IMG/VR virus record: IMGVR_UViG_3300046514_000337
Location: 1,423 to 65,422 of that record
From: a virus
Taxonomy: Duplodnaviria; Caudoviricetes
Reading direction: 5' to 3' (one strand)
Length of the DNA stretch: 64,000 nucleotides
Shown here in pieces: positions 28,997 through 60,911 of the stretch. Under the pieces are notes generated by a model. That model was not told the DNA's origin. It was given only the letters and a program-made list of their open reading frames with translations, and searched no databases. A program made the position numbers and the translations under genes. How positions within the stretch are numbered: position 1 is the first letter of the stretch; each line of letters opens with the position of its first letter.

Positions 28997-31900
28997 CTAC
29001 GGCCCCGCTGGCGCCCACGAAGTCTGCACGCTCGGATCGCCGCCGAGGAACTTGAAGCCCTGCACCACATCGCCGACTTTCGGTGCAGGTGGCGGCGCCG
29101 GAGCACCGCTCGGCTGGTTCAGTCCACGCGCCGTCTCCCCTGCCGCATGTGCCTGTGCCGGCGTCAGTTGCGGTTTGCCCATCAGGTCTTTGTAGTTTTC
29201 TTTCAGGTCCTGATCGGTCATCCGCAAGATGCGATCCTGCTCAGCCTTGTCCTTTGCCTGAGCTAATGCGGCCTTCCGTAGTGCGATATTCTGTGCTGCC
29301 ACGTCGCTGCGCGCCGCCTGATCCGGCTTCATGTTGATCGGCTGATCGCCCGATTTCATCGTGCCGGTGCGAGTGTCCATGAACAGCGGCATTCCCTGCC
29401 CATCTGTCCCGACGTAACTGAAGTGCCCGTTTTCAGCCCGCGTCGATGCTGCCTGCGCTGCGAGGTGCGCAGCATACGCTTGATCGCGCGCCGCCATTGA
29501 CTGAACGCGCTGCCCGTAGATGTCCGTGCGGTTCTCCGCATTGTGCGCCATCTGCTGCCGATACTGATCCAACTCCTGCTGCTTGAGCTGGTTGTATTCC
29601 AACTGCTGCTGCCGTAGCTTCTGGTTCTGCGCCCAGGTCAGCCCCTCGAGCGCGCCGTGGCCAATGTTGACGCTGGCATACGGTGACGACCCGCTCAGAA
29701 TACCGAGTCCCGCCGCCATCAGCGCCGCGCCCGGCGTTTGCGTCCAGTCTCCGGTGCCATGCGTACTCGGCGGCCCAAGCGCTCCGTGCGGGGCCGGCGC
29801 GGCTTCCTGCGCATCCTGCGCTGCCGTCACCTGATGCGCTGGTGGAGGCCCAAGCGCCCCATTGCCCGCCGCAGCAGGGCCGCCCGCAACGCTCGTGCCC
29901 ATCGGCTGCGTTATGTCGATGCCTGGCATTGCCGCTTGCAGCGCCTTGACTGTGCGCGGGTCCCATCGCTGCACCGGGATAATGTCGGCTACCATCGTCT
30001 GCGTGTCTTTATCAGCATCGTCAGCGGTGGGGTATTTGCGCAGATCGACGCCAGCCTTCGGGGCGAAATCGCGCCAGGTGCCGTCTGTAATCTGGTAGAA
30101 GCCGCGAGCGCGGCCCGAACTTGTCATGGGACCAGCGCCGTGCTCGCGGCCTGAATTTTCGGCAGCCCCAGTAACATCATGCACGATGTCGAGCGGCCCA
30201 CGGGGCGCACCCAGTACGTTGCCAGCCGAGGCGCCTGGCATCATTAGCGGAGCCTGCGGCGGCCCGAGGGCAGTGGCAGGTTGAGGAGCCGACGGCGGAA
30301 ACATCCTTGCCCCAGAGTAGGTATCCGGCACGGAGTTTGGATTGCGCAACCCGGCGGTTTCGCTCGCAATGTCAAAGTGCGCAGGCAAGTCTAAGGCTGC
30401 ATCAGGCATCGACTCCGGTGGGGGGGCCTGCATATGCTGCCACGCACCGCGAGCACGGCTACCAACCGCTCCCAACGCGCGCGCCATCGGACTGTCCGGT
30501 GCAATGAAAGGCTCCGCTCCAGCATCGCTCGGCCCACCGTAATCGTCATCTGCGACGCCACCGCTCGCCATCCCCATACCCGGCAAGCCGCCCAGCCCCT
30601 GCATCATCGGCTGAGGCTGCTGCGCGAGCGCCGGATCGCTCTGCGGCATCATCTGGCGCCGCCGCAGCACCGCCTGCACCAGCCCGCCCTGCTGCGAGCC
30701 AGGCGGTACACGCGCCTGCAACTCGCGCAGCTTCTCCGTCGGCATCGAGGACAGTTGGTTCAGCGCGTTCCCGTACATCGGGTTGCCAGAGCCGAGCCCC
30801 GCCTGCGATACCGGCGACAGGCCCGGCGTCGGCCCGAGGGCTAGCGGCAGCGCACCGCCGTCGTCGTAGCCGATCGGGCCGCCGAGTGCGCGATGTGGGA
30901 TGCGTCCGCCGCGAGCGCCGCCAGTATAGTACCACCCGGTATCCGCAGCACCCGTCGCACCCGCAAGGCCGGTGTCTATTGCGTTGCCGCCAGAGCCACC
31001 GAACCAGTTCCCCATCCCGTTAAACGCACCGCTGTTGTACAGCCCCAGCCCTGTCAGCCCGAGCCCCGCGGCCTGGCTAGCGATCGATGGCCCCGGCGTC
31101 GTCGTACTGCCCGAACTACCCGCGCCGTCCGCACCCGTCGCCAGCCCCAACTCGAAATTGCTGATCTGATACGGGAACGCCTGCGCCTGCTGAAACTGCT
31201 GATACGGCACGTTCAGTTGCTGCTGCGCCAGCCCCTGCATCTGGTTGCCGATGCCCAACTGCGCATTGGCCCCGCTCAGCCCGAGGCCCTGCGCCTCCTG
31301 CCCCAGGTTCGCCATCCCGAACGCGCCCTGCGACGCCAGCCACGCATTCGCCTCCTGCGAGGACAGCCCCGTGCCGAGCGCGCTCTGATAGGCAGCTTGT
31401 CCTATGTTTCCGAGTTGCCCGAGTGAACCGGCCGCGCCCAGCCCCAACTGCGCATTGGTCGTGCCAGTCTGCATCGCCGCGCCGAGCGCCTGCCCGTAGC
31501 CAGACTGCAGCACGTTCGCGAGCGAAGCATTGTTGGCGAGATCCTGTTGACCCGCGAGCGTCGATTGCGCGATGGCCGCCCGGTCGCCGCCGAACGCGCC
31601 AGCACCGACAGCCGAGCCAACAAGTTGCTGCTGCTGGATGGCATCGTTTTGCTTTTGCAGCGCTTGCAGCGAGGACGTGACGTTCTGCGTGTACGGCGAC
31701 ATGAAATTCTGCACGCCGAACTGGCCGCCGAGCGGATTCATGCCCTGCCCAGCCGTAGTCGCGAACTGCGATGCCGGCCCTAAGTAGCCTTGCAGTGCCG
31801 GATTGGAATACTGTCCTACGGTGGACGCCGGGTTGACGCCGGAGGTGCTCGCGTTAATGAGGTTCGCGGCTTGGCCTAGGTATGGCTGCGCGAGGCTAGA

Positions 31901-32155
31901 GGCGGCGTTGATGTTTCCAAATGCCGCCTGTTGCTCGGGGTTGAAGCCAGCAACGAGGGGGCTGTTGTACGTGGGATATGGAGCCTGAGCTACGTTAGTC
32001 CCGGTGTTAATGGCTGTCTGGTACGCTGCCTGGGCAAGTGGGTTCGGCGTCGTCGTCTGGGTGACAGTCGAGTTATTGCCACCACCCTTACTTCCAAACA
32101 GGAGAATAGAAGCGCGGTCTAGATATCTCGCAAAGCCTGTGTTACTCTGGCTCAT
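28997..32155 (-). CDS. ejection (DNA transfer/pilot) protein with lysozyme/transglycosylase-like domain
   Basis: GSKGGG..TVTQTT N-terminus; Q/G/A-rich; AENSG...ARGFYQITDGTW motif. Confidence 0.75.
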   Translation of the reverse strand: MSQSNTGFARYLDRASILLFGSKGGGNNSTVTQTTTPNPLAQAAYQTAINTGTNVAQAPYPTYNSPLVAGFNPEQQAAFGNINAASSLAQPYLGQAANLINASTSGVNPASTVGQYSNPALQGYLGPASQFATTAGQGMNPLGGQFGVQNFMSPYTQNVTSSLQALQKQNDAIQQQQLVGSAVGAGAFGGDRAAIAQSTLAGQQDLANNASLANVLQSGYGQALGAAMQTGTTNAQLGLGAAGSLGQLGNIGQAAYQSALGTGLSSQEANAWLASQGAFGMANLGQEAQGLGLSGANAQLGIGNQMQGLAQQQLNVPYQQFQQAQAFPYQISNFELGLATGADGAGSSGSTTTPGPSIASQAAGLGLTGLGLYNSGAFNGMGNWFGGSGGNAIDTGLAGATGAADTGWYYTGGARGGRIPHRALGGPIGYDDGGALPLALGPTPGLSPVSQAGLGSGNPMYGNALNQLSSMPTEKLRELQARVPPGSQQGGLVQAVLRRRQMMPQSDPALAQQPQPMMQGLGGLPGMGMASGGVADDDYGGPSDAGAEPFIAPDSPMARALGAVGSRARGAWQHMQAPPPESMPDAALDLPAHFDIASETAGLRNPNSVPDTYSGARMFPPSAPQPATALGPPQAPLMMPGASAGNVLGAPRGPLDIVHDVTGAAENSGREHGAGPMTSSGRARGFYQITDGTWRDFAPKAGVDLRKYPTADDADKDTQTMVADIIPVQRWDPRTVKALQAAMPGIDITQPMGTSVAGGPAAAGNGALGPPPAHQVTAAQDAQEAAPAPHGALGPPSTHGTGDWTQTPGAALMAAGLGILSGSSPYASVNIGHGALEGLTWAQNQKLRQQQLEYNQLKQQELDQYRQQMAHNAENRTDIYGQRVQSMAARDQAYAAHLAAQAASTRAENGHFSYVGTDGQGMPLFMDTRTGTMKSGDQPINMKPDQAARSDVAAQNIALRKAALAQAKDKAEQDRILRMTDQDLKENYKDLMGKPQLTPAQAHAAGETARGLNQPSGAPAPPPAPKVGDVVQGFKFLGGDPSVQTSWAPAGP

Positions 32156-32181
32156 CGCCGTCCCACCGTAGAGGCAATGGC

Positions 32182-32700
32182 ATGCTCACCGCCGAAAGGC
32201 TGCGGGAAGTTATTCGATATGACCCGGAGAGCGGACTCATTTATCCGCTGCAGCAACCAAATCGCCCAAAACGAAATGACCTTGGACGCTCCGTAGGAAG
32301 AATGAGCGTTCATGGCTACGTCAGGCACAAAATCGAAGGCAAAGACCGCTGGGTTCACCGCTTGGCGTGGCTTTATATGACCGGAGAATGGCCGGCCGCT
32401 GAGGTCGATCACGTTAACGGCGTTAGACACGACAACAGATGGGGCAATTTGCGAGCCGCTACCAAAGCGGAAAATGCTAAGAATAATAGAGGCAAATCGG
32501 TAAATGGGTACCTTAAGGGCACCTATCCGCACTATCGCAAATGGTCCGCCGCGTTGCGGGTTAATGGCAAGCGCTTGTTGCTGGGCTATTTTGCTACCGA
32601 GATTGAGGCACATAACGCCTATATGGAGGCAGCGAGAAAACACTACGGAGTCTTCGCCACACGCGGGAAGGTGGCAAATCAGCGCGGCATTCATGACTGA
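32182..32700 (+). CDS. HNH homing endonuclease with AP2-like C-terminus, antisense to the late operon
   Basis: LTAERLRE..YDPESG; HRLAWLYMTGEWP..EVDHVNG.RHDNRWGNLR; LGYFAT..EAH.AY. Confidence 0.92.
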   Translation: MLTAERLREVIRYDPESGLIYPLQQPNRPKRNDLGRSVGRMSVHGYVRHKIEGKDRWVHRLAWLYMTGEWPAAEVDHVNGVRHDNRWGNLRAATKAENAKNNRGKSVNGYLKGTYPHYRKWSAALRVNGKRLLLGYFATEIEAHNAYMEAARKHYGVFATRGKVANQRGIHD

Positions 32701-33089
32701 ATGTCCCTCATCATTACGAGGCCGTACCTCGTCCATCCACGCTTAGCTAAAAACGGCTCCCATCCTTCGCGTCCGCACTCCGTCAGCGCCGTGCAGCCCT
32801 GTTGGCGCGCGAACTCCTCCATCTGGGGAATGAGGGAAAGGCAAGCGTCCAGTTCGCCGATCGCAAGCCAGATGTTCATCACCTTGCGGCGGGGATAAAC
32901 CGTAACTTCGGTGATGCACGCGCCCCTGTCATCACCGAAGAACTGCGCAGCGCCGCGCTGGATCATGGCGATGATGTCGCCGACTGTGTGTGTGTCGCCC
33001 GCGCGGCGAAGGGCACGGAGCAGCGGCGTCCGAAGCGCCAGAAGCGCGTCGATCCGCGGATCGGTCTGGAATGCGACGGCTTCGCTCAC
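32691..33089 (-). CDS. GNAT-like virion assembly protein
   Basis: CITEV..YPR..NIWLAIGEL...EEFARQQGC......GREGW; located before the ejection genes. Confidence 0.7.
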   Translation of the reverse strand: MSEAVAFQTDPRIDALLALRTPLLRALRRAGDTHTVGDIIAMIQRGAAQFFGDDRGACITEVTVYPRRKVMNIWLAIGELDACLSLIPQMEEFARQQGCTALTECGREGWEPFLAKRGWTRYGLVMMRDIQS

Positions 33090-33544
33090 GCCGCCCTCAC
33101 CAGAAACATCGAGCCGGCCCGTGCCCCGTTCTTGGCGAACAGGCGCGATTTGCCGCCGTCCCCATCGGTCCAGTCCATCAGGTAAACGCGCAGCCCCAAC
33201 TGTGCGCCGAACCAGTCCGAGAACTTCACCAGATCGGCGGCGTGGCTGGACTTCCGGTGGTCAGAATGCACGTGGCCTCCGAAGAACGACATCACCGCGT
33301 AGTCGTCCGAATACCACCAATTTTGGATATGAAGTCCAATAGCGGCAACGACAATATTGCCCTCTTTGATTATCCCAAACACGGGATTCACCCGCTTGGT
33401 GATGGCGTTCGTGACCGTGTTCCACACCTTCTCAGTGTTCACCGGCGCGTGCCGCATTTCCTCGTGCGCGGAGATGCAGAACGTGTAGAGCGCGTCGGCA
33501 TCCGCCTCGGTGGCGATTTTCACGCTGGTTGGACACGCGATCAT
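33086..33544 (-). CDS. GNAT-like protein
   Basis: VKIATEAD start; WWYSD...HVHSDHRKS..A..L motif. Confidence 0.65.
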   Translation of the reverse strand: MIACPTSVKIATEADADALYTFCISAHEEMRHAPVNTEKVWNTVTNAITKRVNPVFGIIKEGNIVVAAIGLHIQNWWYSDDYAVMSFFGGHVHSDHRKSSHAADLVKFSDWFGAQLGLRVYLMDWTDGDGGKSRLFAKNGARAGSMFLVRAA

Positions 33545-35166
33545 TTCTGCGGCCCCGGCAAACGCTTAATGACAGAAATGTTATGTTTTCGGAACTTCAC
33601 GATGAAATCGTCGAGGAGCGCATGGCCGTGCTCTAAACTCTTGCCAGAGAGCTTCATCACTTCCTCCGGGGACACTATTCGCTCTCCCCCGGCCACGATT
33701 ACAGGGACGAGCCCCTTCGTTCGCCCGCCGCGCGAGAAGTGGTGCGCTCCGACCATGCGTGGCGCTGACGGTGGCCGAGGTAGCGTGCCGTGCAGCTTAG
33801 GCATCGGCAACGAGGTCCCGAACGGCCCCTGATGGATCATCGCATCAAACTGATGCGCGCCAGAAGCGGTGTTTCCCTGTCCCATGCCGGACATTATGTC
33901 AGCAGGCATAACATAGCTGCCATGTGGCAGCGAAAGCGGGATGTGATCGCTCCGCCCCCCTATGGGGCTATTAATCAGCCCCGACGGGTGTTCCGTGTTC
34001 CGCGCCTCGTTGCGCTCAAACCATGGTGCGGCCTGTCCCATCGGCATCATGCCGCCGCCGTTCGCGCGCTTTTTGATCCGGCCACCGCGGGCCTGACCGC
34101 CGCCCGTGATGTCGCCCATACCCTGGCCGCTCTCAAGGCCAGCGCCCAGCGCGTTAATTCCCAGGTCGCCAGCCACGGCCTGCGCGCCTGGATCCTGCGA
34201 CGTGCCTGGGTCAAATCCCCCAATTGCGCCGCCGATGCCCCCCCCCACCAACGAACCCAATGGTCCGAGCCCCAAGACAGAGCCAATCCCGGCGCCTATC
34301 TTTGCTCCAGTGCCAGAAAAGCCAAACGACGGTCCCTGGCCGCCGATGATATCTACCACCGATGGGTTGCCACCCCCGACCCCCGCATTGACGCCGCCGA
34401 CCTCGGCGTTCCCCGCGCCCTCCGGCCCGCTCCCGGGTTGCCCGGCTTGTCCAGACGGCTGCGCACTGGCGGCTGGCGCCCCCGCCTGCTGCCCCCCGAT
34501 ATTCAGCCCCCGCTGCGCCAGCGTCCGTAGCGCTGCCTGTGTCCCTGGCGTCAGCGCCCCCGTCATCGGATCGAGGCTGAAGTCACCCGTCTGCGGGGTG
34601 TTCATAAAGCCAGCGGAGTTGATGCCCATGTCGCTGGGCACCTGCGGGCTGTAGCGCGGCAGGTTCGCGAGGTTCACGGGGCTACCGGCGGTGCCGGCCA
34701 GATAGGACGGAGCCTGCGGGAGAGGTCCGGCAGGCGACTGTCCCGCTGGCGACTGCCCCGAGGAACCGCCTGGCGGGGCAAACACGTCCCGCGCATACTG
34801 CTGGGCCCCCGCATGGGCTGCGGCGATGGCATCGTAGCCGGCCTGGATCGCATCACTCTGGCTGACACCACCGCCGCCAGCAGGCGACTGCCCCGACGGA
34901 GTGCCCGTACCGAAAACCCCCTGCGCATACTGCTGCGCCCCTGTACGGGCTGCAGCAATGGCATCGAAGGCAGCCTGCATAGGATCGCTCTGGCCGACTC
35001 CACCGCCCGCGGCACGCTTCTTCACCCGCGCGTTCGCTGTGGCGATGGCCAGGCCCTCGTCGCCTGTCCGCTTCAGGATGGCGTTGGCAATGCGCGCCGC
35101 GTGCGCCGACTGCCCTGGGGAGAGCGCTCGGTTGTGCTTTCGGAAGCTGGCTTGGTCCCAAGGCAT
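33541..35166 (-). CDS. putative internal virion protein with ChaB/YdaT-like N-terminus and a GRSDHIP...GSYV domain
   Basis: MPW...ARIANAIL..GDEGLAIATAN; ~44-aa tandem repeat; C-terminal GGRSDHIPLSLPHGSYVMPAD and VAGGERIVSPEEV. Confidence 0.65.
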   Translation of the reverse strand: MPWDQASFRKHNRALSPGQSAHAARIANAILKRTGDEGLAIATANARVKKRAAGGGVGQSDPMQAAFDAIAAARTGAQQYAQGVFGTGTPSGQSPAGGGGVSQSDAIQAGYDAIAAAHAGAQQYARDVFAPPGGSSGQSPAGQSPAGPLPQAPSYLAGTAGSPVNLANLPRYSPQVPSDMGINSAGFMNTPQTGDFSLDPMTGALTPGTQAALRTLAQRGLNIGGQQAGAPAASAQPSGQAGQPGSGPEGAGNAEVGGVNAGVGGGNPSVVDIIGGQGPSFGFSGTGAKIGAGIGSVLGLGPLGSLVGGGIGGAIGGFDPGTSQDPGAQAVAGDLGINALGAGLESGQGMGDITGGGQARGGRIKKRANGGGMMPMGQAAPWFERNEARNTEHPSGLINSPIGGRSDHIPLSLPHGSYVMPADIMSGMGQGNTASGAHQFDAMIHQGPFGTSLPMPKLHGTLPRPPSAPRMVGAHHFSRGGRTKGLVPVIVAGGERIVSPEEVMKLSGKSLEHGHALLDDFIVKFRKHNISVIKRLPGPQK

Positions 35167-53851: not shown

Positions 53852-54106
53852 TCAAGCTCGTGCATCCCAAAACCAATAACGACGGTTGCCATCGCGGGCA
53901 TACATCAGATTCGAGAGCCAATCGCCCTCAAACCATGTTTGAACGCCATCAGCGCGTCGCTTAATGTCCAATTCCTTCCGGGGATGAAGCTCCGCCAGAA
54001 GATCGCGGCCGTTCACATGGCTGAAACTGGCATGTACAAGCGCATCAAAGCGCTTTTGCTTCTCGTCCGCCGACAGAGCCAGTAATTCAGCTTTGGTAGC
54101 CATCAT
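53852..54106 (-). CDS. hypothetical protein
   Basis: MMATKAELL..., coupled to the portal stop. Confidence 0.5.
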   Translation of the reverse strand: MMATKAELLALSADEKQKRFDALVHASFSHVNGRDLLAELHPRKELDIKRRADGVQTWFEGDWLSNLMYARDGNRRYWFWDARA

Positions 54107-56526
54107 TATGGCCCTCCCCCCGGTTGAGGTCGCGTTGCCAGTCCAGCCGCAGCAACAGCGTGGTCGTCCGCGTGCGCAACCATCTCGTGCTGTAGCCTCA
54201 ATCTCTCCGTCTGCTCGCGCGTCATATCGATCTCGGTCTTCGCCGCACGATCCGCCGCACGGTCCTGGCTCTCGACCATCGCCTCGTGCGCCCGCAACTG
54301 CTGATCGGCCCCAACCGCCGACCCTTCCGCCGCCGTCTTCTGCGTCTGCGCCCCCAGCAGCGGCACCTTCGCATCGGCCTCCTTCGCCCGCGCCTGCGCC
54401 GTCGCAATCGACGCCTGCGCCTGCATCATCTTCGCCTGCGTCGCCTGCGGATCCGGTGGCTTCGCGCCGGCCCCACCAGCCGCCGCTGCCTGCTGCGCCT
54501 GGAACGCCTCGAACTCCTCCTGCGTGTTCAGAAGCGAGTCCGTGCTCGTGACACCCATGCCGCGCAGAACCCACTCCGCCGTAGGCACCACCTTGAACAC
54601 CCCCGGCGGTGTCTGCAGCGCCATCTGGAACACCGCCATCCGCTGCATCACCCGATGCAACATCGACGGCGTATTCGGATCAGCCGCCGGCACCAGATCG
54701 TAATCGTCCAGCGCCGCCAGCAGCGTAGCCTCATCCCACTGACGCGCCGGCTTCTTATTGTGACGCCAAAACGCCTCCGGGTCCTCACGCAACCGCTCGG
54801 CAATCAGCCCAAACTCCTCCGCCTGCGCCGCATGCAGCCGCTTAAACACCGCACCCGTCAGCTTCGTCGCCTCGATGATGTTCGCCATCACCGTCCCGAC
54901 CGGAGCGTTCTGCACACCCTCGCCCGTCGGTACATTCGGCCGCGACCCCACCCGAGCCGCCGCCTGCGCCACATTGTCCAGCAGCGACAACCCCGCAGGC
55001 TGCGGCCCCTTGTACGGCAGCGGCGAGATCATGTTCCCGATGGGCTGCCCACCAGTCTGAATCGGAACACCGGCCCCAGGCGCAACCCGGAAGATGTTCG
55101 TCAGTTGCTTCCCCAGCACATCCACATACAAAAAGCCCGGGAAGTTGGAAAACATCATCGAATCGAGCATCAGCCGCCATCCGGCCGTCAGTGCCATCGT
55201 CGTATTGCCGAGGATGTGCATCAGCCCGATGCCGTAAAAACTAAGGACCGGCGCAAACGAATACTTCACAAACGTCCGCCGAGCCGCAAAGTCCTTGTCG
55301 CCAGGCATCCAGTCGCGCCGAATCTCGAACACCTGTCGACTGTCCCGGTCCATCGATACCTTGTACGGGCGCGGCACCCGGATTTCGCCGTCGTCCGTAA
55401 ACCCGCCACCGTTCCCCGGCGCCCCATCATCCAACCCACGGATATTCAGTTTCGTATAGCACTCCCAGACCGTGTGCGGCTTGTCTTCAGGACGCTGCGC
55501 GCTGCGATCATACCCCTGCGCCTCAGCCACAGCCTCCTGCACAGGATTCTGCACATACAGGGGCTGGCTAATCCGCCCCTCCGCGTATACCCCCGCTTCC
55601 ATCAGCTTCAGGATATCGTCCTTCAGCTTCTCCATTTCGTGCGTTACTCGCGGCGCATTCGCCGTGTCAGTCACACCAGCATCGACAATCAGATCCTTGG
55701 AACTGATGCTCTCGCTCACCGGACGACGCCGCAGTGGGCAGTTGAACACCTTCTTAAACGCACATCCCAGCAACCCAACCACGAACGCCATCTGGTCAGT
55801 ATCTGGGTAATACTCCGTCGCCGTATTCGTCAGAAAGTGGTTCAGGTCCTTCTCGAGATCCGCCGCCAGCTCATCGCCCATATCCAGGGCTGGGCCGCCG
55901 TTGTGCCCCATCCCGGCTTCGTTCGCCGCCATAACAGCCTGAACCGCCGTATCCACGTTCTCCGGCGCGATCACACCAGCCGTCGCCATCGCCTGCACAG
56001 CGAACCGAACAACCTCCTCCGGCACCCCACTCGGAGCCGTGGCGTCGTTCCGCACCTTTACCGGACCATCCGCCGGCAGCATCTCACCCCTGAAATCCGA
56101 CTGAAACCCAAGACACGCCTCGAGCAGCAGCGGATGCCGAACCGTGCTCATCCCCTCCAGAGGCGCACCACTCCCACCCGCATCGCTCCGCGGCGGCTCC
56201 AACCGCAGCCCAAGCATCCGAATGGCCTCGGCCGTCATCTCCATCACCCCGCGCCGGCTGGCGATGTCCGCCGTCACCCCGCGCCAGACCTCATCCCCGA
56301 TCCGCGCCACCTCGTTCTGGTCCAGCACGTCCACCAGGTTCGCGAAGTGCTTCCCGTTCCCCGCACGCTTCGCCGGTCGCCACTCTTCCTCGGGCAGTTC
56401 GTCGATCGAGTTGTCGTCGTTGAGGATCAGCAGGCCGCCGGTATCGGGGTTGACCGTCCCCTCGCGCCCGTCCGGGGCGGTACCGTACTCGGTGTCCTCA
56501 CGGGGGCGGAGGTTTACGACGACCAT
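54106..56526 (-). CDS. portal protein (P22-like podoviral)
   Basis: HFANL, STVRHPLL.EA...FQ, G.AFKKV, FYGIGL.HILG, APVGT; Q/A-rich C-terminal barrel. Confidence 0.9.
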   Translation of the reverse strand: MVVVNLRPREDTEYGTAPDGREGTVNPDTGGLLILNDDNSIDELPEEEWRPAKRAGNGKHFANLVDVLDQNEVARIGDEVWRGVTADIASRRGVMEMTAEAIRMLGLRLEPPRSDAGGSGAPLEGMSTVRHPLLLEACLGFQSDFRGEMLPADGPVKVRNDATAPSGVPEEVVRFAVQAMATAGVIAPENVDTAVQAVMAANEAGMGHNGGPALDMGDELAADLEKDLNHFLTNTATEYYPDTDQMAFVVGLLGCAFKKVFNCPLRRRPVSESISSKDLIVDAGVTDTANAPRVTHEMEKLKDDILKLMEAGVYAEGRISQPLYVQNPVQEAVAEAQGYDRSAQRPEDKPHTVWECYTKLNIRGLDDGAPGNGGGFTDDGEIRVPRPYKVSMDRDSRQVFEIRRDWMPGDKDFAARRTFVKYSFAPVLSFYGIGLMHILGNTTMALTAGWRLMLDSMMFSNFPGFLYVDVLGKQLTNIFRVAPGAGVPIQTGGQPIGNMISPLPYKGPQPAGLSLLDNVAQAAARVGSRPNVPTGEGVQNAPVGTVMANIIEATKLTGAVFKRLHAAQAEEFGLIAERLREDPEAFWRHNKKPARQWDEATLLAALDDYDLVPAADPNTPSMLHRVMQRMAVFQMALQTPPGVFKVVPTAEWVLRGMGVTSTDSLLNTQEEFEAFQAQQAAAAGGAGAKPPDPQATQAKMMQAQASIATAQARAKEADAKVPLLGAQTQKTAAEGSAVGADQQLRAHEAMVESQDRAADRAAKTEIDMTREQTERLRLQHEMVAHADDHAVAAAGLATRPQPGGGP

Positions 56527-58102
56527 CAGGCCGCCACCTCATACATCGTGTCCGTTACCGTCACCAGATGCCCAACGGCGGGTTTCCACTTAACAAAACC
56601 GCAGTCCAAAGCGTGGCGGAAGCCAGCCTCAGTCGCAACGAGTTCTATGCGGCCATCCGCAGCGTCGCGCGCCTCACACAACCCGGCGTCAATCAACTCC
56701 ATAACAGACGATAAACTACCCGCGTCAACCTTCCACCGGCCTAGCACCACGGCCTCCTGCAGTATCGCCACATGGTGACGACGAAGGGGTTCGACGCCGA
56801 TCATAAACCCGCCAGTTACCACACCACAGCCGAGATGTCACCCAATCCGTTCAGACGCTCACCACGCCTCACGCTCCAGTAGATCCTCGTGCCACCAGTT
56901 CTCCAACCATGGGTCCAAAATAAAACCGGCAGCCGCCACTTCTTCCGCCGTCACCCAGCCGTCAAGGATCGCCTCCCGGAAAATAACCGGGCGGTTCAGA
57001 AGATAAGCACGCAGAAACTTCCGACGGACAGATCGCTCAGCGTCAGTCGCATCGGGGGGAAGGCACAGTTGAATACCCACCGACCGCGCCAATTCTGCGG
57101 CCAGATGCGATTCTTGCCAGACGCCCATCACTCAATCTCCAACTCCGCCGCGTGCAGCCGCCCCAGCCGCCGCCCCACCCCCGCCACATTCGGCGACGGA
57201 AGCCACTCGTCCGTCCGCAGCGGGCCAGCACGAACCATGTCCCCCGTGATCCGCCCGTAGATCCCACGCCCCGCCTCGATCATCGCATCCTGCTGCGCCA
57301 TCCGCCCCTCAGCCGCCCACTTCTGTCGCACGTAGGCCGCCTCCGTCTCCCGCGCTACCTCCGCCATCCGCTCACGCCACGCCGCCAAATCCTCCCGATA
57401 CTGGCGAGCAAACATACGGGCGCGAGCGGGGTTCATGCCAAAGCAGGCTTCAGAGCATCAATCGCCGCCCGCGCGGCCGCGTCCTCCACGCCCGCCTCCC
57501 AACGCGTGTAGATCAACCCATACTTCCCGCAATTGCCGCACCCATTCACGCAGGCAATGCTCGTCCCCTCGTGAACCTCACTCTCCCACCCGCATTGGCG
57601 ACACGAGAAAACAGTGCGGTTTTCGCGCCCAGTGCGCATCACCCCAACCCCTCCATCAACTTCCCAACACACTCAGGCACCGGATACACATCCCCCAAGT
57701 CAAACAACTCCGCCACCAGCCGATCCCGCTCCGCCAAATCCACACCTCCCACCATCTCGCCCCTCCTCACACGCCGCACCAACTCATACGACCAGCCCCC
57801 AGCAACGGGCAGCGCACGTACATGATCCACAATCCACAACTCCCCACCAATCTTCGTCACATACCGATGCCGCCGAAATACCAACTCCCCACCCGCCGGA
57901 GGCAACCACGCCAAGGGTAGAGCGTGCTTCACGCTTCATCCCATGGCAACTCGCCCATCGGGATAGGATCAATCTCGCAATCCCCATACGTTACCCGAGG
58001 CCGACAGCGACCACTCCACTCGCTCTCGCCAACCAGACGAGCCGGCTCACTCACCCGCGTTACATCCTCCCACACTCGTTCACCCGGGGTCATGCCGCCT
58101 AG
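56526..58102 (-). CDS. cluster of small hypothetical ORFs between TerL and portal (56526-56822, 56859-57131, 57128-57436, 57433-57672, 57639-57932)
   Basis: Mostly coupled; 57433-57672 has two CxxC pairs. Confidence 0.55.
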
Positions 58103-59742
58103 GTCCTGTATAGGGGTTGAAGCCGCCCAGCCCGATCATCTGCCATCGCCCCCAACCGATCCGCCTCCACAGCCTCAACCTCCCGCATCAGCATCCCGTT
58201 GTCCCGCATCCATCGAAGCGCGCTCGTTACAGCATCGCACCTATCATCATGCCGCCCACGCGGAAACAAACTAATCTCACGGATCGTATCCTCACACCAC
58301 TCAGGCCACGCCAGTTCGTCCGTCCCCGCACGCAACACCCGAGGCGCATACACCATCCCATCCTCAAACAACGGCACAACACTCATCACCCGCGACACCT
58401 TATCGTACCCTCGCCGCCCCGCCACACTCCCACGCGGATCAGTCATCGTTATCGAATACGGCTTGCCTTGAAACACCCGACCCAGTTCCTGCACCACACT
58501 ATATCCCGTCGCCTTGTTCTCAACCAGCAACGTATTCACCTTATACCGCCGAGCCGTCTCATCTATCCGCTGAACCGCATCATTCAACGCCATCCGATCA
58601 GCCCAACACCGAATCAACATCACCTTCGGCATTCCATGACGCTGCTCGGTGAACGTCCCCAAAACCGCCATCGCCGTCGGATCGTTCACCGTGCGCTCAG
58701 TGAACGCCCCGTCAACCCACGCCACCACAAAATCAAACCGGGGAAATTTCGGCGCGCTCACATCAACAGGGTCCCACGGCTGCCACCAGTCATCCCGAAT
58801 GATCGCCCCACCACGCGGCACCGGCAACTGCTGAAACTGAGACGCTACCGCATATTGCCCCATCGCACGCTTGTCGCGCTCGACAACCCACGCCGGGAAA
58901 CGCTCAGGGAAACACAACTCCCCTCGCACCTCCCACCATTGCCGGTCGTTCCGACCAGGCTCCAAGTCCTCAACCGTCCGCGGCTCTCTCCAACCTATCG
59001 ACGTCTCGCACCGCCGCTCGTCCAACTCCATCGGGATCATCAGGTGCGTGTAGTCCCCACCATCACTCAACAGCGTCCCCGTCGCATCATCCTCATGCGT
59101 CCGCTGCTCAATCGCCACAATCGCACTCGCCTGCGGATCGTTCATACGTGTCGGCAGCGTCTCCCGAATGTACCGCTGCGCCACCCCGCGAACCACAGGA
59201 CTGTCCGCCTGCTTCACCGAAATCAAGTCATCCAACAGCACCCGATCGCCGCGCTCCCCCGTCCCCACCCCATCCACCGACGTCGCCAGCTTCCACCCCG
59301 TCTTGTCATTCGCCAGCTTGCCTACCCCCGTCTGCGTCACCTCAAACCGATCGCCCCAATACTTCGTAAACATCGGCGACCGTAGCAACTGAAGCGCCCT
59401 CCCATTGTCGCGCTCTGTCAGCGATGACGTATACGACACACACACATACCGCATCGACGGATGCCGCACCCACTCCCAGCACGGCCAGAATACCTGCGTC
59501 GTCAAACTCTTCGACATCCCAGGAGGGCAGTTGATAATCAGCCGCGCTATCTCCCCTGTCGTCACCGCCTCAAGATGTTCGCAAATCGCCCCGATCGCCC
59601 AACCGTTTACGAACGGACGCGATGGCTCTACCGCACTCCAGCAAAAACGTATGAAATCAATCAGCCGCTCCTCAGCCTGCGCCGCACGCAGAAACTCAAT
59701 GTCCGCAGCCGTCAGCCCGCCTAGGTCAAGCGGGGCCGCCAC
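58099..59742 (-). CDS. terL: terminase large subunit
   Basis: INCPPGMSKS (Walker A), GERGDRVLLDD (Walker B), QRTHEDD, FPRGRHDDRCDA nuclease motif; GTG start with SD. Confidence 0.95.
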   Translation of the reverse strand: MAAPLDLGGLTAADIEFLRAAQAEERLIDFIRFCWSAVEPSRPFVNGWAIGAICEHLEAVTTGEIARLIINCPPGMSKSLTTQVFWPCWEWVRHPSMRYVCVSYTSSLTERDNGRALQLLRSPMFTKYWGDRFEVTQTGVGKLANDKTGWKLATSVDGVGTGERGDRVLLDDLISVKQADSPVVRGVAQRYIRETLPTRMNDPQASAIVAIEQRTHEDDATGTLLSDGGDYTHLMIPMELDERRCETSIGWREPRTVEDLEPGRNDRQWWEVRGELCFPERFPAWVVERDKRAMGQYAVASQFQQLPVPRGGAIIRDDWWQPWDPVDVSAPKFPRFDFVVAWVDGAFTERTVNDPTAMAVLGTFTEQRHGMPKVMLIRCWADRMALNDAVQRIDETARRYKVNTLLVENKATGYSVVQELGRVFQGKPYSITMTDPRGSVAGRRGYDKVSRVMSVVPLFEDGMVYAPRVLRAGTDELAWPEWCEDTIREISLFPRGRHDDRCDAVTSALRWMRDNGMLMREVEAVEADRLGAMADDRAGRLQPLYRT

Positions 59743-60911
59743 GCCGCCGATCCTCCGCCGCCTGCAACTCACGCAGGAACGCAACCTCCGCAACCGTCAA
59801 ACCACCGCGCCACTTGCGCCGCCCCGGAGGCACCAGCCGCCCCCGCTCCATCCGCCCCGCCTGCCGCAGCATCGACGACGCCATCCGCAAGTTCCCCGCC
59901 ACATCACCCACGCCGCCGAGCCGCGCCACGCGATGCGCCAGCGTCTCCGCCTCCATCGCCAGACGCTCGATCTCTGCCTGGCGGAGGGGGTCAAGTAACA
60001 TCGCCCAGCTCCGTCAGCCCGTCGAGCGTCTCCCGGTGCCGCCGCTCCCGCACCTCCGCCTCCGCCCACGTCTCACGCAGTCGCCGCACACACACGTCGT
60101 GCATCGCCACCGCATCCCGGTTCGCATTCGCAAACCGCGGACCGCTCACCGATGTCAGCGCCGCCAGCGCCTTGAAGTGCGCCATCGCCGCGCGCAACTG
60201 CTCCTCCGAGATCGGCGCGTGCGTCACCAGCGCGTTTGCAGTCTGGATCGTCATTCGCACTTCGTCAGTCATTCCACATCCTCCGCCGCATCCTCCCGCG
60301 CTAACCTCTCCGCCTCCGCAAATGCCCCACGAACAGGCCAACGAGCCAGCATCCGCACCATAGGATTCGCATGGTCAAGCAGCGGGTGGCCATACGGCGG
60401 CGGCGCAACCCACCCCAGCCGCACCCAATCAGCCAGCACCGTTTCAGGATCGTCGGGTTGCCAGGGTACGTATGGCGCGTATGGCGCATCAGTCATCCCA
60501 CATCCTCCGCCGCTGCCCCAAGCCAGAACGCATACCGCGCCACCGCCGCCGCGCGCGCCGCATCCATCGCATCGGTGTCACAAAGAGGAACATCGTACAG
60601 AGAACGTGACTCACAAAAGGTCATCGGCCGTGCGCGCCCCTTCAAGTAGACGAACTCTCCGGTTCGTATATCAACGCCAGCGGTAACGAATGGGTACTCT
60701 ACCATGCCATATCCCGGTGCCGATTAATCTCCGCATTCAGCCGGGCGTACAGAACGCGGTTGGTTTGCACGAGTTCGCAATGTGGCGGATTGCAGTCCAG
60801 CGTGATGCGAACATACTCGCGCCAACGCTCGAGCGCCGACAGCACGAGGTCATCTTCATGGGGTTCGGGCAGCCCTACCACGTCTGACACATCCACTGTC
60901 CCGCCATCCAA
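59726..60911 (-). CDS. small coupled hypothetical ORFs (59726-60001, 59991-60272, 60269-60496, 60493-60705, 60699-~60890)
   Basis: ATGA overlaps. Confidence 0.55.
60265..60513. repeat. 25-bp direct repeat TCAGTCATYCCACATCCTCCGCCGC (60265-60289, 60489-60513)
   Basis: Read directly, one mismatch; encodes the AAEDV(E/G)-stop / MTD junction. Confidence 0.9.

What the first reader, a model, noticed from the sequence alone, without database searches (positions are those of the whole stretch)
32152..32700. Antisense HNH gene whose opposite strand is a stop-free 180-codon bridge coupled at both ends
Seen: on the minus strand an ATG at 32694 overlaps the GNAT stop (ATGA), stays open across the whole lower-GC HNH gene, and its TGA at 32152 overlaps the pilot-protein ATG (ATGA). 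Inference: the homing endonuclease avoids polarity in an essential operon by carrying a ribosome-conducting antisense ORF, an intron-free way to be a harmless insertion.
Basis: partly seen in the sequence, partly recalled or inferred. Interest (0 to 1): 0.7.

Follow-up and report, generated by a model that had tools for sequence, protein, structure and literature searches.

The report
Stop-free mirror frame across backward HNH
A selfish HNH endonuclease gene sits backwards between two normally abutting virion genes of a soil phage, and its opposite strand is an open frame running exactly from the end of one gene to the start of the next, which may let ribosomes cross the insert or may be a codon-usage by-product.

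Summary
Observation confirmed. The + strand ORF 32182-32700 is an HNH_3/AP2 homing endonuclease. The minus-strand ORF (ATG 32694 to TGA 32152, 180 codons) overlaps the stop of the GNAT-like gene and the start of the ejection ("pilot") gene by ATGA at each end.

It is the frame -1 mirror of the HNH. Only sense TTA/CTA/TCA can close it, and the HNH has none.

Chance of that: 0.23-0.31 with this phage's codon usage, 0.02-0.065 judged from 85 non-embedded homologues.

Five distinct related phages lack the HNH, and the two flanking genes abut there. So it is an insertion into a coupled junction, and the ejection gene has a new start with 21 extra codons.

Among 14 other backward-embedded HNH contexts, 4 have open mirror frames (0.8-1.35 expected) and 5 have the mirror stop overlapping the next start. 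A second set (5 contexts, 0 open), T4 segD and a likely stop-creating natural variant (V38L) argue against necessity.

No RNA or ribosome data exist. I put a translated ribosome bridge at 0.48 and a by-product at 0.44.

This scan noted the same pattern on other DNA (at least 7 notes). I found no paper describing it.

The parts
32182..32700 (+). HNH_3 / AP2-like homing endonuclease gene (172 aa), antisense to the surrounding operon. It has no TTA, CTA or TCA codon among 13 Leu and 5 Ser codons.
   Evidence: Pfam HNH_3 E 3.8e-17, AP2 below cut-off. Codon counts. 189 relatives in viral contigs at 37-47% identity for the 80 kept. 517 proteins at E<=1e-10.
32152..32694 (-). Frame -1 mirror ORF ('bridge'): ATG 32694 to TGA 32152, 180 codons. 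The frame stays open up to an ATG at 32736.
   Evidence: No Pfam or PHROG family. The 180-aa product was called as a gene on one 1179-nt contig, and partial forms (153 and 126 aa) on two other short contigs.
32691..33089 (-). GNAT-like small gene (132 aa, phrog_22172) upstream in the operon. Its last 10 bases overlap the 3' end of the HNH, and its TGA is inside the upstream ATGA.
28997..32155 (-). DNA ejection ('pilot') protein gene (1052 aa, phrog_4287). Its ATG is inside the downstream ATGA.
   Evidence: N-terminal alignment with L083 (71% identity) and L082.
32093..32155 (-). 21 extra N-terminal codons of the ejection gene (MSQSNTGFARYLDRASILLFG), absent from the HNH-free relative L083. Where L083 has its ATG the window has GGA. 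ATG 32155 is the first ATG/GTG/TTG after the in-frame stop at 32188..32186.
32156..32181 (.). 26-nt divergent spacer. CCCACC 32162-32167 is GGTGGG on the minus strand, 8 nt before the ejection-gene ATG. AGAGG 32170-32174 lies 7 nt before the HNH ATG.
   Evidence: Duplex energies -6.2 and -5.8 kcal/mol, within the range of the operon's other starts.
33086..33544 (-). Acetyltransferase-like gene (152 aa, phrog_1249). It overlaps its neighbours by ATGA and GTGA, which shows that this operon habitually overlaps stop and start.

Best explanation
A free-standing HNH/AP2 homing endonuclease gene was inserted backwards into the tightly coupled junction between a GNAT-like gene and the DNA-ejection gene of a soil phage. 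The insertion replaced the ejection gene's start with a new ATG 63 nt further upstream.

On the operon's mRNA the insert reads as a 180-codon frame -1 ORF. Proposed course: ribosomes that finish the GNAT-like gene restart at the overlapping ATG (ATGA), translate a functionless polypeptide across the insert, stop at the TGA that overlaps the ejection gene's ATG, and restart there.

This would keep the messenger covered and the downstream start accessible. Translational coupling would be preserved, and a C-rich 540-nt untranslated stretch that could cause polarity would be avoided.

Shown: the geometry, the insertion, the lack of stop-making codons, and a family-level trend. Inferred: translation, coupling, any effect on polarity, and selection at this locus.
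For: 1. Exact ATGA at both ends and 180 in-frame codons.

2. The HNH uses other A-ending codons at 16 of 75 but stop-making TTA/CTA/TCA at 0 of 16 Leu/Ser4 codons. In 85 non-embedded homologues the two rates are equal (ratio 1.01), giving P(0 of 16) = 0.021. Regression models give 0.038-0.065.

3. 5 of 5 distinct relatives lack the HNH, and the acetyltransferase/GNAT-like gene abuts the ejection gene there. In L083 the junction is TGA-A-ATG. The operon overlaps stop and start at several junctions.

4. The bridge RNA is C-rich (C/G 1.13) while the flanking mRNA is G-rich (0.88-0.89).

5. Among 98 distinct close homologues, 13 are embedded backwards (9 contexts). Of these, 7 of 13 have open mirror frames against 13 of 85 others. 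Stop-making codons are 5 of 149 against 216 of 1169 at GC3 0.45-0.75, while control A-ending codons are alike (116/669 against 973/4860). Flanks of the open cases are real genes by PHROGs.

6. Pooled, window excluded: 4 of 14 contexts are open against 0.80 expected (P 0.003), or 1.35 after calibration (P 0.022).

7. The mirror stop overlaps the next gene's start in 5 of 14 contexts, against 4 of 46 other divergent pairs (P 0.025). L222 also has ATGA at the upstream end.
Against: 1. Frame -1 ORFs are the commonest long antisense ORFs. With this phage's codon usage P(open) is 0.23-0.31, and 1642 of 6689 172-codon windows are free. Shadows up to 830 aa occur elsewhere in the window.

2. The family trend was found post hoc with a crude ORF caller. 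My first classification gave 0 of 8. The model under-predicts open frames in controls (5.9 expected, 13 seen).

3. In the independent set of 51 further HNH_3 genes, 5 are embedded backwards and 0 are open, with stop-making codons at 21 of 114 against 80 of 390 in co-oriented genes. Only part of their flanks could be verified.

4. 10 of 14 backward contexts are closed, so a bridge is not needed for persistence. T4 segD has 9 stop-making codons and at least 15 stops in every operon-strand frame.

5. Stop/start overlap also occurs in 3 of 10 closed contexts, so it does not by itself mark a working bridge.

6. A 172-aa variant on a 65,439-nt contig has V38L. Codon 38 is GTA, so a single change to Leu must give CTA or TTA, a stop in the bridge. 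I could not fetch its DNA.

7. The ejection gene has its own SD-like GGTGG of ordinary strength.
Confidence: 0.48

Rival explanations
1. By-product. The HNH insertion is real, but the opposite-strand ORF is only the frame -1 shadow that G+C-rich codon usage leaves open. It is not translated, or its translation does not matter. The ejection gene is translated from its own ribosome-binding site. The two ATGA overlaps are coincidence, or a trace of how the cassette went in (for example microhomology at an ancestral ATGA junction, which leaves ATGA on both sides; the frames then match with chance about 1 in 9 by my estimate).
For: In-register geometry. P(open) 0.23-0.31 with the phage's usage, and 24.5% of 172-codon windows free. 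19 of 80 homologues are open, tracking GC3, with 7 of 25 non-embedded homologues open at GC3 0.63-0.75. Long antiparallel frame -1 ORFs are reported as frequent and mostly not under selection (bioRxiv 10.1101/724807, passages read). The replication set is negative, segD has no bridge and there is the V38L variant. The SD-like site before the ejection gene is of ordinary strength. The finding was picked from a very large scan, so rare coincidences are expected.
Against: The HNH's own GC3 is 0.58, not the phage's roughly 0.7-0.8, and it uses other A-ending codons freely (16 of 75), so P(open) judged from homologues is 0.02-0.065. Exact ATGA at both ends in the right frame is about 1e-3 or less under independence (my estimate). 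The new start codon of the ejection gene lies in DNA absent from L083, so the downstream ATGA is not simply the L083-type junction. There is an excess of open frames and of stop/start overlaps in backward-embedded close homologues.
Confidence: 0.44
2. The minus-strand ORF encodes a protein with a function of its own: a true antiparallel overlapping gene sharing all its codons with the HNH.
For: It has a start, a stop and operon-like coupling. Gene callers chose it on one short contig, and partial forms on two others.
Against: No Pfam or PHROG family. Its sequence is fully dictated by the HNH. The whole segment is absent from 5 of 5 relatives, so the operon does not need such a protein. Mirror frames of homologous HNH genes are interrupted in most cases (61 of 80).
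Confidence: 0.03

Closest known systems
Frame -1 antiparallel ('shadow') ORFs opposite prokaryotic genes (bioRxiv 10.1101/724807; passages read)
   Same: The ORF is in register with the sense codons. Its stops can arise only opposite TTA, CTA and TCA, which are rare Leu/Ser codons in G+C-rich genomes.
   Different: Here the shadow starts and ends exactly on the stop and start of the flanking operon genes. It also lies over a lower-G+C mobile gene that uses other A-ending codons freely.
Free-standing homing endonuclease genes of T4-type phages, especially segD, the only T4 one oriented against its neighbours (genes 23/24) (review PMC2988022; passages read)
   Same: A selfish endonuclease gene in an intergenic position between essential virion genes. 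Like segD, it is antisense to them. The review states that such inserts must fit into host gene expression.
   Different: segD is GIY-YIG, and it has 9 stop-making codons and no open operon-strand frame. The accommodations the review describes are promoters, terminators and RNA structures, not an opposite-strand ORF.
ShiLan-type hidden HNH insertions in actinophage methylase genes (PMC11855218; abstract and passages read)
   Same: An HNH gene inserted so that the host's reading of the messenger meets no stop across the insert.
   Different: In ShiLan the HNH is on the same strand in another frame, the insert lies inside one gene, and it is read in frame as part of that protein. Here the HNH is on the opposite strand and the open frame is a separate ORF between two genes.
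Ambigrammatic narnaviruses, with a reverse ORF over the RdRp gene (PMC8316113; only title and start of abstract seen in the listing)
   Same: A stop-free ORF on the strand opposite a real gene. It is discussed as mattering through its translation rather than its product.
   Different: Those are RNA viruses of eukaryotes with a genome-length reverse ORF. There is no operon, no flanking genes and no mobile insert.
Translational coupling through overlapping stop and start codons (ATGA, TGATG) in bacterial and phage operons (textbook knowledge, recalled)
   Same: The same overlap motifs occur at both ends of the mirror ORF, and at three other junctions of this operon.
   Different: The coupled middle ORF would be a non-gene: the mirror image of a selfish gene.

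Membership tests
HNH_3 homing endonuclease (Pfam PF13392), free-standing | HNH_3 domain above Pfam's gathering score | tested here: met
   62.1 bits against 24.8, residues 56-99, profile positions 1-45 of 46.
HNH_3 homing endonuclease (Pfam PF13392), free-standing | DNA-binding module (AP2-type) after the nuclease domain | tested here: inconclusive
   AP2 at 19.5 bits, below the cut-off of 33.3. Many homologues carry a precomputed PF00847 hit.
HNH_3 homing endonuclease (Pfam PF13392), free-standing | Sporadic presence: absent from the same site in related genomes | tested here: met
   No HNH match in 6 loci (5 distinct relatives), in which the flanking genes abut.
HNH_3 homing endonuclease (Pfam PF13392), free-standing | Site-specific cleavage and homing | not testable with these tools
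Frame -1 shadow ORF by codon bias | In register with the sense codons, and open merely because TTA/CTA/TCA are rare at the gene's own codon usage | tested here: inconclusive
   The register is met. P(open) is 0.23-0.31 with the phage's usage, but 0.02-0.065 with the usage of homologues or of the gene's other A-ending codons.
Translationally coupled ORF of an operon | Stop/start overlap with both neighbours on the same strand | tested here: met
   ATGA at 32691-32694 and at 32152-32155.
Translationally coupled ORF of an operon | The ORF is translated and downstream expression depends on it | not testable with these tools
   No RNA run is listed and there are no ribosome data.
Ambigram-like reverse ORF kept open by selection | The open mirror frame is conserved across diverged relatives that carry the gene in the same setting | tested here: inconclusive
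   No relative carries the HNH at this junction, and contigs of 4 runs are identical. In analogous settings 4 of 14 contexts are open against 0.8-1.35 expected. The replication subset gives 0 of 5.
ShiLan-type read-through HNH insertion | Insert lies inside a host gene and is read in frame with it, with the HNH on the same strand in another frame | tested here: not met
   The HNH is on the opposite strand, and the mirror ORF is in a different frame from both neighbours and bounded by their stop and start.

The most novel reading that the evidence does not exclude
Backward-inserted homing endonuclease genes in phage operons are tolerated because, or as long as, their frame -1 mirror is a translatable ORF. 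That ORF hands ribosomes from the gene before the insert to the gene after it. It is a DNA-phage counterpart of ambigrammatic coding, in which selection acts on the absence of three sense codons (TTA, CTA, TCA) in the selfish gene and on stop/start overlaps at its borders. This window would be a clean example, with ATGA at both ends and a new start codon for the ejection gene supplied by the insert.
Probability: 0.45. Interest if true: 0.8.

Novelty: new variant of a known kind. Interest (0 to 1): 0.6.

Why it matters
If the bridge is real, it is a simple way, so far undescribed in the papers I could search, for a selfish gene to sit in the 'wrong' orientation inside an essential, translationally coupled operon without harming it. 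It would mean that synonymous codon choice in a mobile gene is shaped by the strand it does not encode. It would also mean that gene callers and annotators should expect translated non-genes in phage operons, and that antisense stop content can be used to date or classify endonuclease insertions.

It is directly testable with reporter fusions and ribosome profiling. If it is not real, the case is a useful warning. In G+C-rich phage DNA, frame -1 shadows can look perfectly 'coupled' by chance.

Tried and rejected
**Close relatives carrying the same insert.** None was found.
- blastn of 30500-34500 against GenBank phages: no match.
- Single-protein scans of viral contigs with the 132-aa and 152-aa neighbours: nothing.
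- Metagenome contigs with the GNAT-like alignment: nothing.
- Genome contigs with the ejection-protein alignment: nothing.

Purifying selection on the mirror frame at this locus could therefore not be measured.

**Sequencing runs.** 24 DNA holders were listed and no RNA holder. Contigs of 4 runs laid on 31800-33100 showed no differing letter. This says nothing on expression or on variation.

**Promoter and terminator scan of 31500-33300.** 0 promoter-like sites. 1 terminator-like hairpin (32288..32263, minus strand) against 1.8 expected, which is chance level.

**First context classification of homologues.** Without the GC3 rule it gave 0 of 8 open. I rejected it because three of its 'backward' flanks had the GC1>GC3 signature of shadow ORFs and four true backward cases had been missed. 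The revised calls were checked with PHROGs for the open cases.

**Reading the mirror ORF as a protein family.** No Pfam or PHROG hit.

**DNA of the V38L variant.** Not obtainable. An exact-pattern scan of metagenome contigs found nothing.

**Not used.** No structure prediction, complex prediction, atlas search or covariance model was run. None would bear on translation of the frame.

**Papers.** Table S3 of bioRxiv 10.1101/724807 (its list of antiparallel ORFs with stop avoidance) might hold phage or endonuclease cases that I could not see. Searches that found no description of an antisense bridge over an endonuclease gene. Searches found the related literature cited.
Full report
**What is there**

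The window is most of a 65,422-base viral record, about 90% complete. Genes from about 22 kb to 60 kb lie on the minus strand and often overlap stop-to-start.

One ORF points the other way. The + strand ORF 32182..32700 (172 aa) matches Pfam HNH_3 (E 3.8e-17, 62.1 bits, cut-off 24.8) and, below its cut-off, AP2. It has 189 relatives in viral contigs (the best 80 are 37-47% identical) and 517 proteins at E<=1e-10 in the large protein collection. Its G+C is 0.53 against 0.65-0.72 around it.

On the minus strand, upstream of it, lies a 132-aa GNAT-like gene (phrog_22172), itself preceded by a 152-aa acetyltransferase-like gene (phrog_1249). Downstream on that strand lies a 1052-aa DNA ejection protein (phrog_4287), followed by a 2274-aa protein.

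- The minus-strand ATG 32694..32692 shares ATGA with the TGA of the GNAT-like gene.
- The frame runs 180 codons without a stop.
- Its TGA 32154..32152 shares ATGA with the ATG of the ejection gene.
- The frame is open 14 codons further up, to an ATG at 32736.

Only sense TTA, CTA or TCA could close it. The HNH has 13 Leu and 5 Ser codons and none of those three. The other two minus frames have 14 and 16 stops.

**Chance**

Frame -1 ORFs are the usual long antisense ORFs of G+C-rich genes (bioRxiv 10.1101/724807, passages read).

- In 20 genes of this window, TTA+CTA+TCA make up 86 of 10,030 codons.
- P(none in 172 codons) is 0.23. Given the HNH's Leu and Ser content it is 0.31.
- 1642 of 6689 172-codon windows are free.
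- Shadows up to 830 aa occur elsewhere in the window.

But the HNH does not share the phage's codon usage. Its GC3 is 0.58 and it uses other A-ending codons at 16 of 75. In 85 non-embedded homologues, stop-making and control A-ending codons are used at equal rates (ratio 1.01). That gives P(0 of 16) = 0.021. Regression on homologues gives 0.038-0.065. Empirically 3 of 26 such homologues at GC3 0.53-0.63 are open.

The two exact overlaps add, by my estimate, about 0.1 and 0.03-0.05. This uses +4 = A in 7 of 20 genes and a one-in-three frame match. If the cassette went in by microhomology at an ancestral ATGA junction, they would add about 1 in 9 together. The finding was also selected from a very large scan.

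**It is an insertion into a coupled junction**

Six loci from five distinct related phages have the acetyltransferase or GNAT-like gene directly before the ejection gene, and no HNH (tblastn; ORFs).

- The closest is L083 (58% identical in the GNAT-like protein, 71% in the ejection N-terminus). Its junction reads TGA-A-ATG.
- The others, as called: L088/L089 a 2-nt gap, L086 an 11-nt gap, and L082 and L085 overlaps.

Against L083, the window's ejection protein has 21 extra N-terminal residues (20 aligned to a gap plus the start Met), and a GGA codon where L083 has its ATG. The first start codon after the in-frame stop at 32188..32186 is the ATG at 32155. So the gene now starts in DNA that L083 lacks. 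DNA similarity to L083 ends near 32716 and resumes near 32080.

The new start has an SD-like GGTGG (-6.2 kcal/mol), ordinary for this operon. On the operon's strand the insert is C-rich (C/G 1.13 against 0.88-0.89 in the flanks). This is the composition expected of the antisense of any gene, and of Rho-sensitive RNA. The latter point is established knowledge that I recall, not something tested here.

**Homologues elsewhere: discovery set**

I pooled 98 distinct close homologues. I classed their neighbours with a simple ORF caller plus a GC3>GC1 rule for G+C-rich loci.

- Thirteen loci (nine independent contexts) are embedded backwards.
- 7 of 13 have open mirror frames, against 13 of 85 others.
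- At GC3 0.45-0.75, stop-making codons are 5 of 149 Leu/Ser4 codons in the backward class against 216 of 1169 in the rest. Control A-ending codons are alike (116 of 669 against 973 of 4860).
- PHROG hits confirm that the flanks of the open cases are real minus-strand genes: head closure, head-tail adaptor, major head protein, RNase H, helicase and others.

The open cases are these:
- A group of related insertions (L102, L106, L024) at 72-87% DNA identity, whose low-G+C member L004 is closed.
- A second group (L136, L235), open at GC3 0.48-0.55.
- L162 and L222.

Closed: L233 (4 stops at GC3 0.72), L228 (1), L099 (1), L209 (7), L160 (6).

**Replication set**

Scanning 65 of the same viral records with PF13392 gave 119 matches. 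Of these, 67 were the discovery genes and 51 were new, distinct and complete.

- Five are embedded backwards and none is open.
- Their stop-making codons (21 of 114) equal those of co-oriented genes (80 of 390).
- Only some of their flanks could be verified.

T4 segD is the one T4 endonuclease gene oriented against its neighbours (PMC2988022). It has 9 stop-making codons and 15 or more stops in every operon-strand frame. So a bridge is not a general requirement.

**Pooled test**

With the window excluded and one conservative representative per context, 4 of 14 contexts are open against 0.80 expected (P 0.003). After inflating expectations by the factor 1.7, by which the model under-predicts open frames in controls, the expectation is 1.35 (P 0.022). 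This trend was noticed post hoc. My first, cruder classification gave 0 of 8.

**The ends**

In 5 of 14 contexts the first mirror-frame stop after the HNH start overlaps a start codon of the downstream gene:
- L102 and L106: ATGA.
- L136/L235: TGATG.
- L209: TTGA.
- L228: ATGA.
- L294: ATGA.

The count is 6 of 15 junctions if L106, whose downstream gene is unrelated to that of L102, is counted apart. This compares with 4 of 46 other divergent ORF pairs called the same way (P 0.025, or 0.010 for the junction count).

Three of these are closed frames. So the overlap alone does not show a working bridge. It may be a trace of past bridges or have another cause. L222 has ATGA between the RNase H stop and a mirror-frame ATG at the upstream end.

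**Variation at the locus**

The HNH protein cluster holds 33 contigs with the window's sequence and one 65,439-nt contig with V38L. Codon 38 is GTA. A single change to Leu must therefore give CTA or TTA, either of which is a stop in the bridge, 47 codons before its end. This is weak evidence that the open frame is dispensable.

**Verdict**

The structure is real and the insertion is real. The geometry is exactly what a ribosome relay would need. Neither translation nor selection is shown at this locus, and the comparative evidence is mixed.

- Translated bridge: 0.48.
- By-product of codon usage and of the insertion event: 0.44.
- Mirror protein with its own function: 0.03.
- The remaining 0.05 I leave unassigned.

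The nearest published things are frame -1 shadow ORFs, T4 segD, the same-strand ShiLan read-through insertions (PMC11855218) and ambigrammatic narnaviruses (PMC8316113, listing only). My searches found no paper describing an antisense bridge over an endonuclease gene.

Other agents of this scan noted the same pattern in at least seven other genomes. I used those notes as leads to the ShiLan and narnavirus papers and did not count them as evidence.

Noticed in passing
window 32093-32155 (minus strand): The ejection protein has 21 N-terminal residues that the HNH-free relative L083 lacks, and a GGA codon where L083 has its ATG. The insert, or the recombination that brought it, seems to have supplied a new start for an essential gene.
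   Followed up: partly
protein P0130 (65,439-nt contig, not fetched); window codon 32293-32295: A natural V38L variant of the HNH. From GTA, a single change to Leu must give CTA or TTA, which would put a stop in the mirror frame.
   Followed up: partly
L004, L014/L102, L058/L106: about 35-60 nt before the HNH start: A stretch of about 26 nt is conserved at the DNA level upstream of related backward HNH genes whose coding DNA is only 65-72% identical. It may be a promoter, an operator or the enzyme's own target. Not analysed.
   Followed up: no
L004, L102, L106, L024, L162, L233: 3' end of the HNH: In three independent contexts the HNH stop and the stop of the convergent upstream operon gene overlap by exactly 4 nt (TTAA, CTAG or CTAA type). 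In the window the overlap is 10 nt. Backward HNH genes sit flush against the preceding gene.
   Followed up: no
107 divergent ORF pairs in all held loci: The distance between divergent start codons is in phase 0 (gap = 2 mod 3) in 52 of 107 pairs, and in 23 of 46 pairs that do not involve an HNH. One third would be expected. It may be an artefact of my ORF caller or a real bias. Unexplained.
   Followed up: partly
window 54286-56778 (+) opposite 54106-56526 (-), and 58117-59385 (+) opposite 58099-59793 (-): Very long frame -1 shadow ORFs (830 and 422 aa) opposite ordinary genes of the same phage. The 806-codon gene has a single TTA/CTA/TCA codon.
   Followed up: yes
L136/L235, between the HNH start and the head-closure gene start: An AT-rich TATATATAC stretch, promoter-like for the HNH, is crossed by the mirror frame without a stop (read as K-Y-I-Y-P), while another minus frame has a stop there.
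   Followed up: no
window 32263-32288 (minus strand): A terminator-like hairpin with a weak T tail lies inside the bridge region. The scan found 1 against 1.8 expected by chance.
   Followed up: yes
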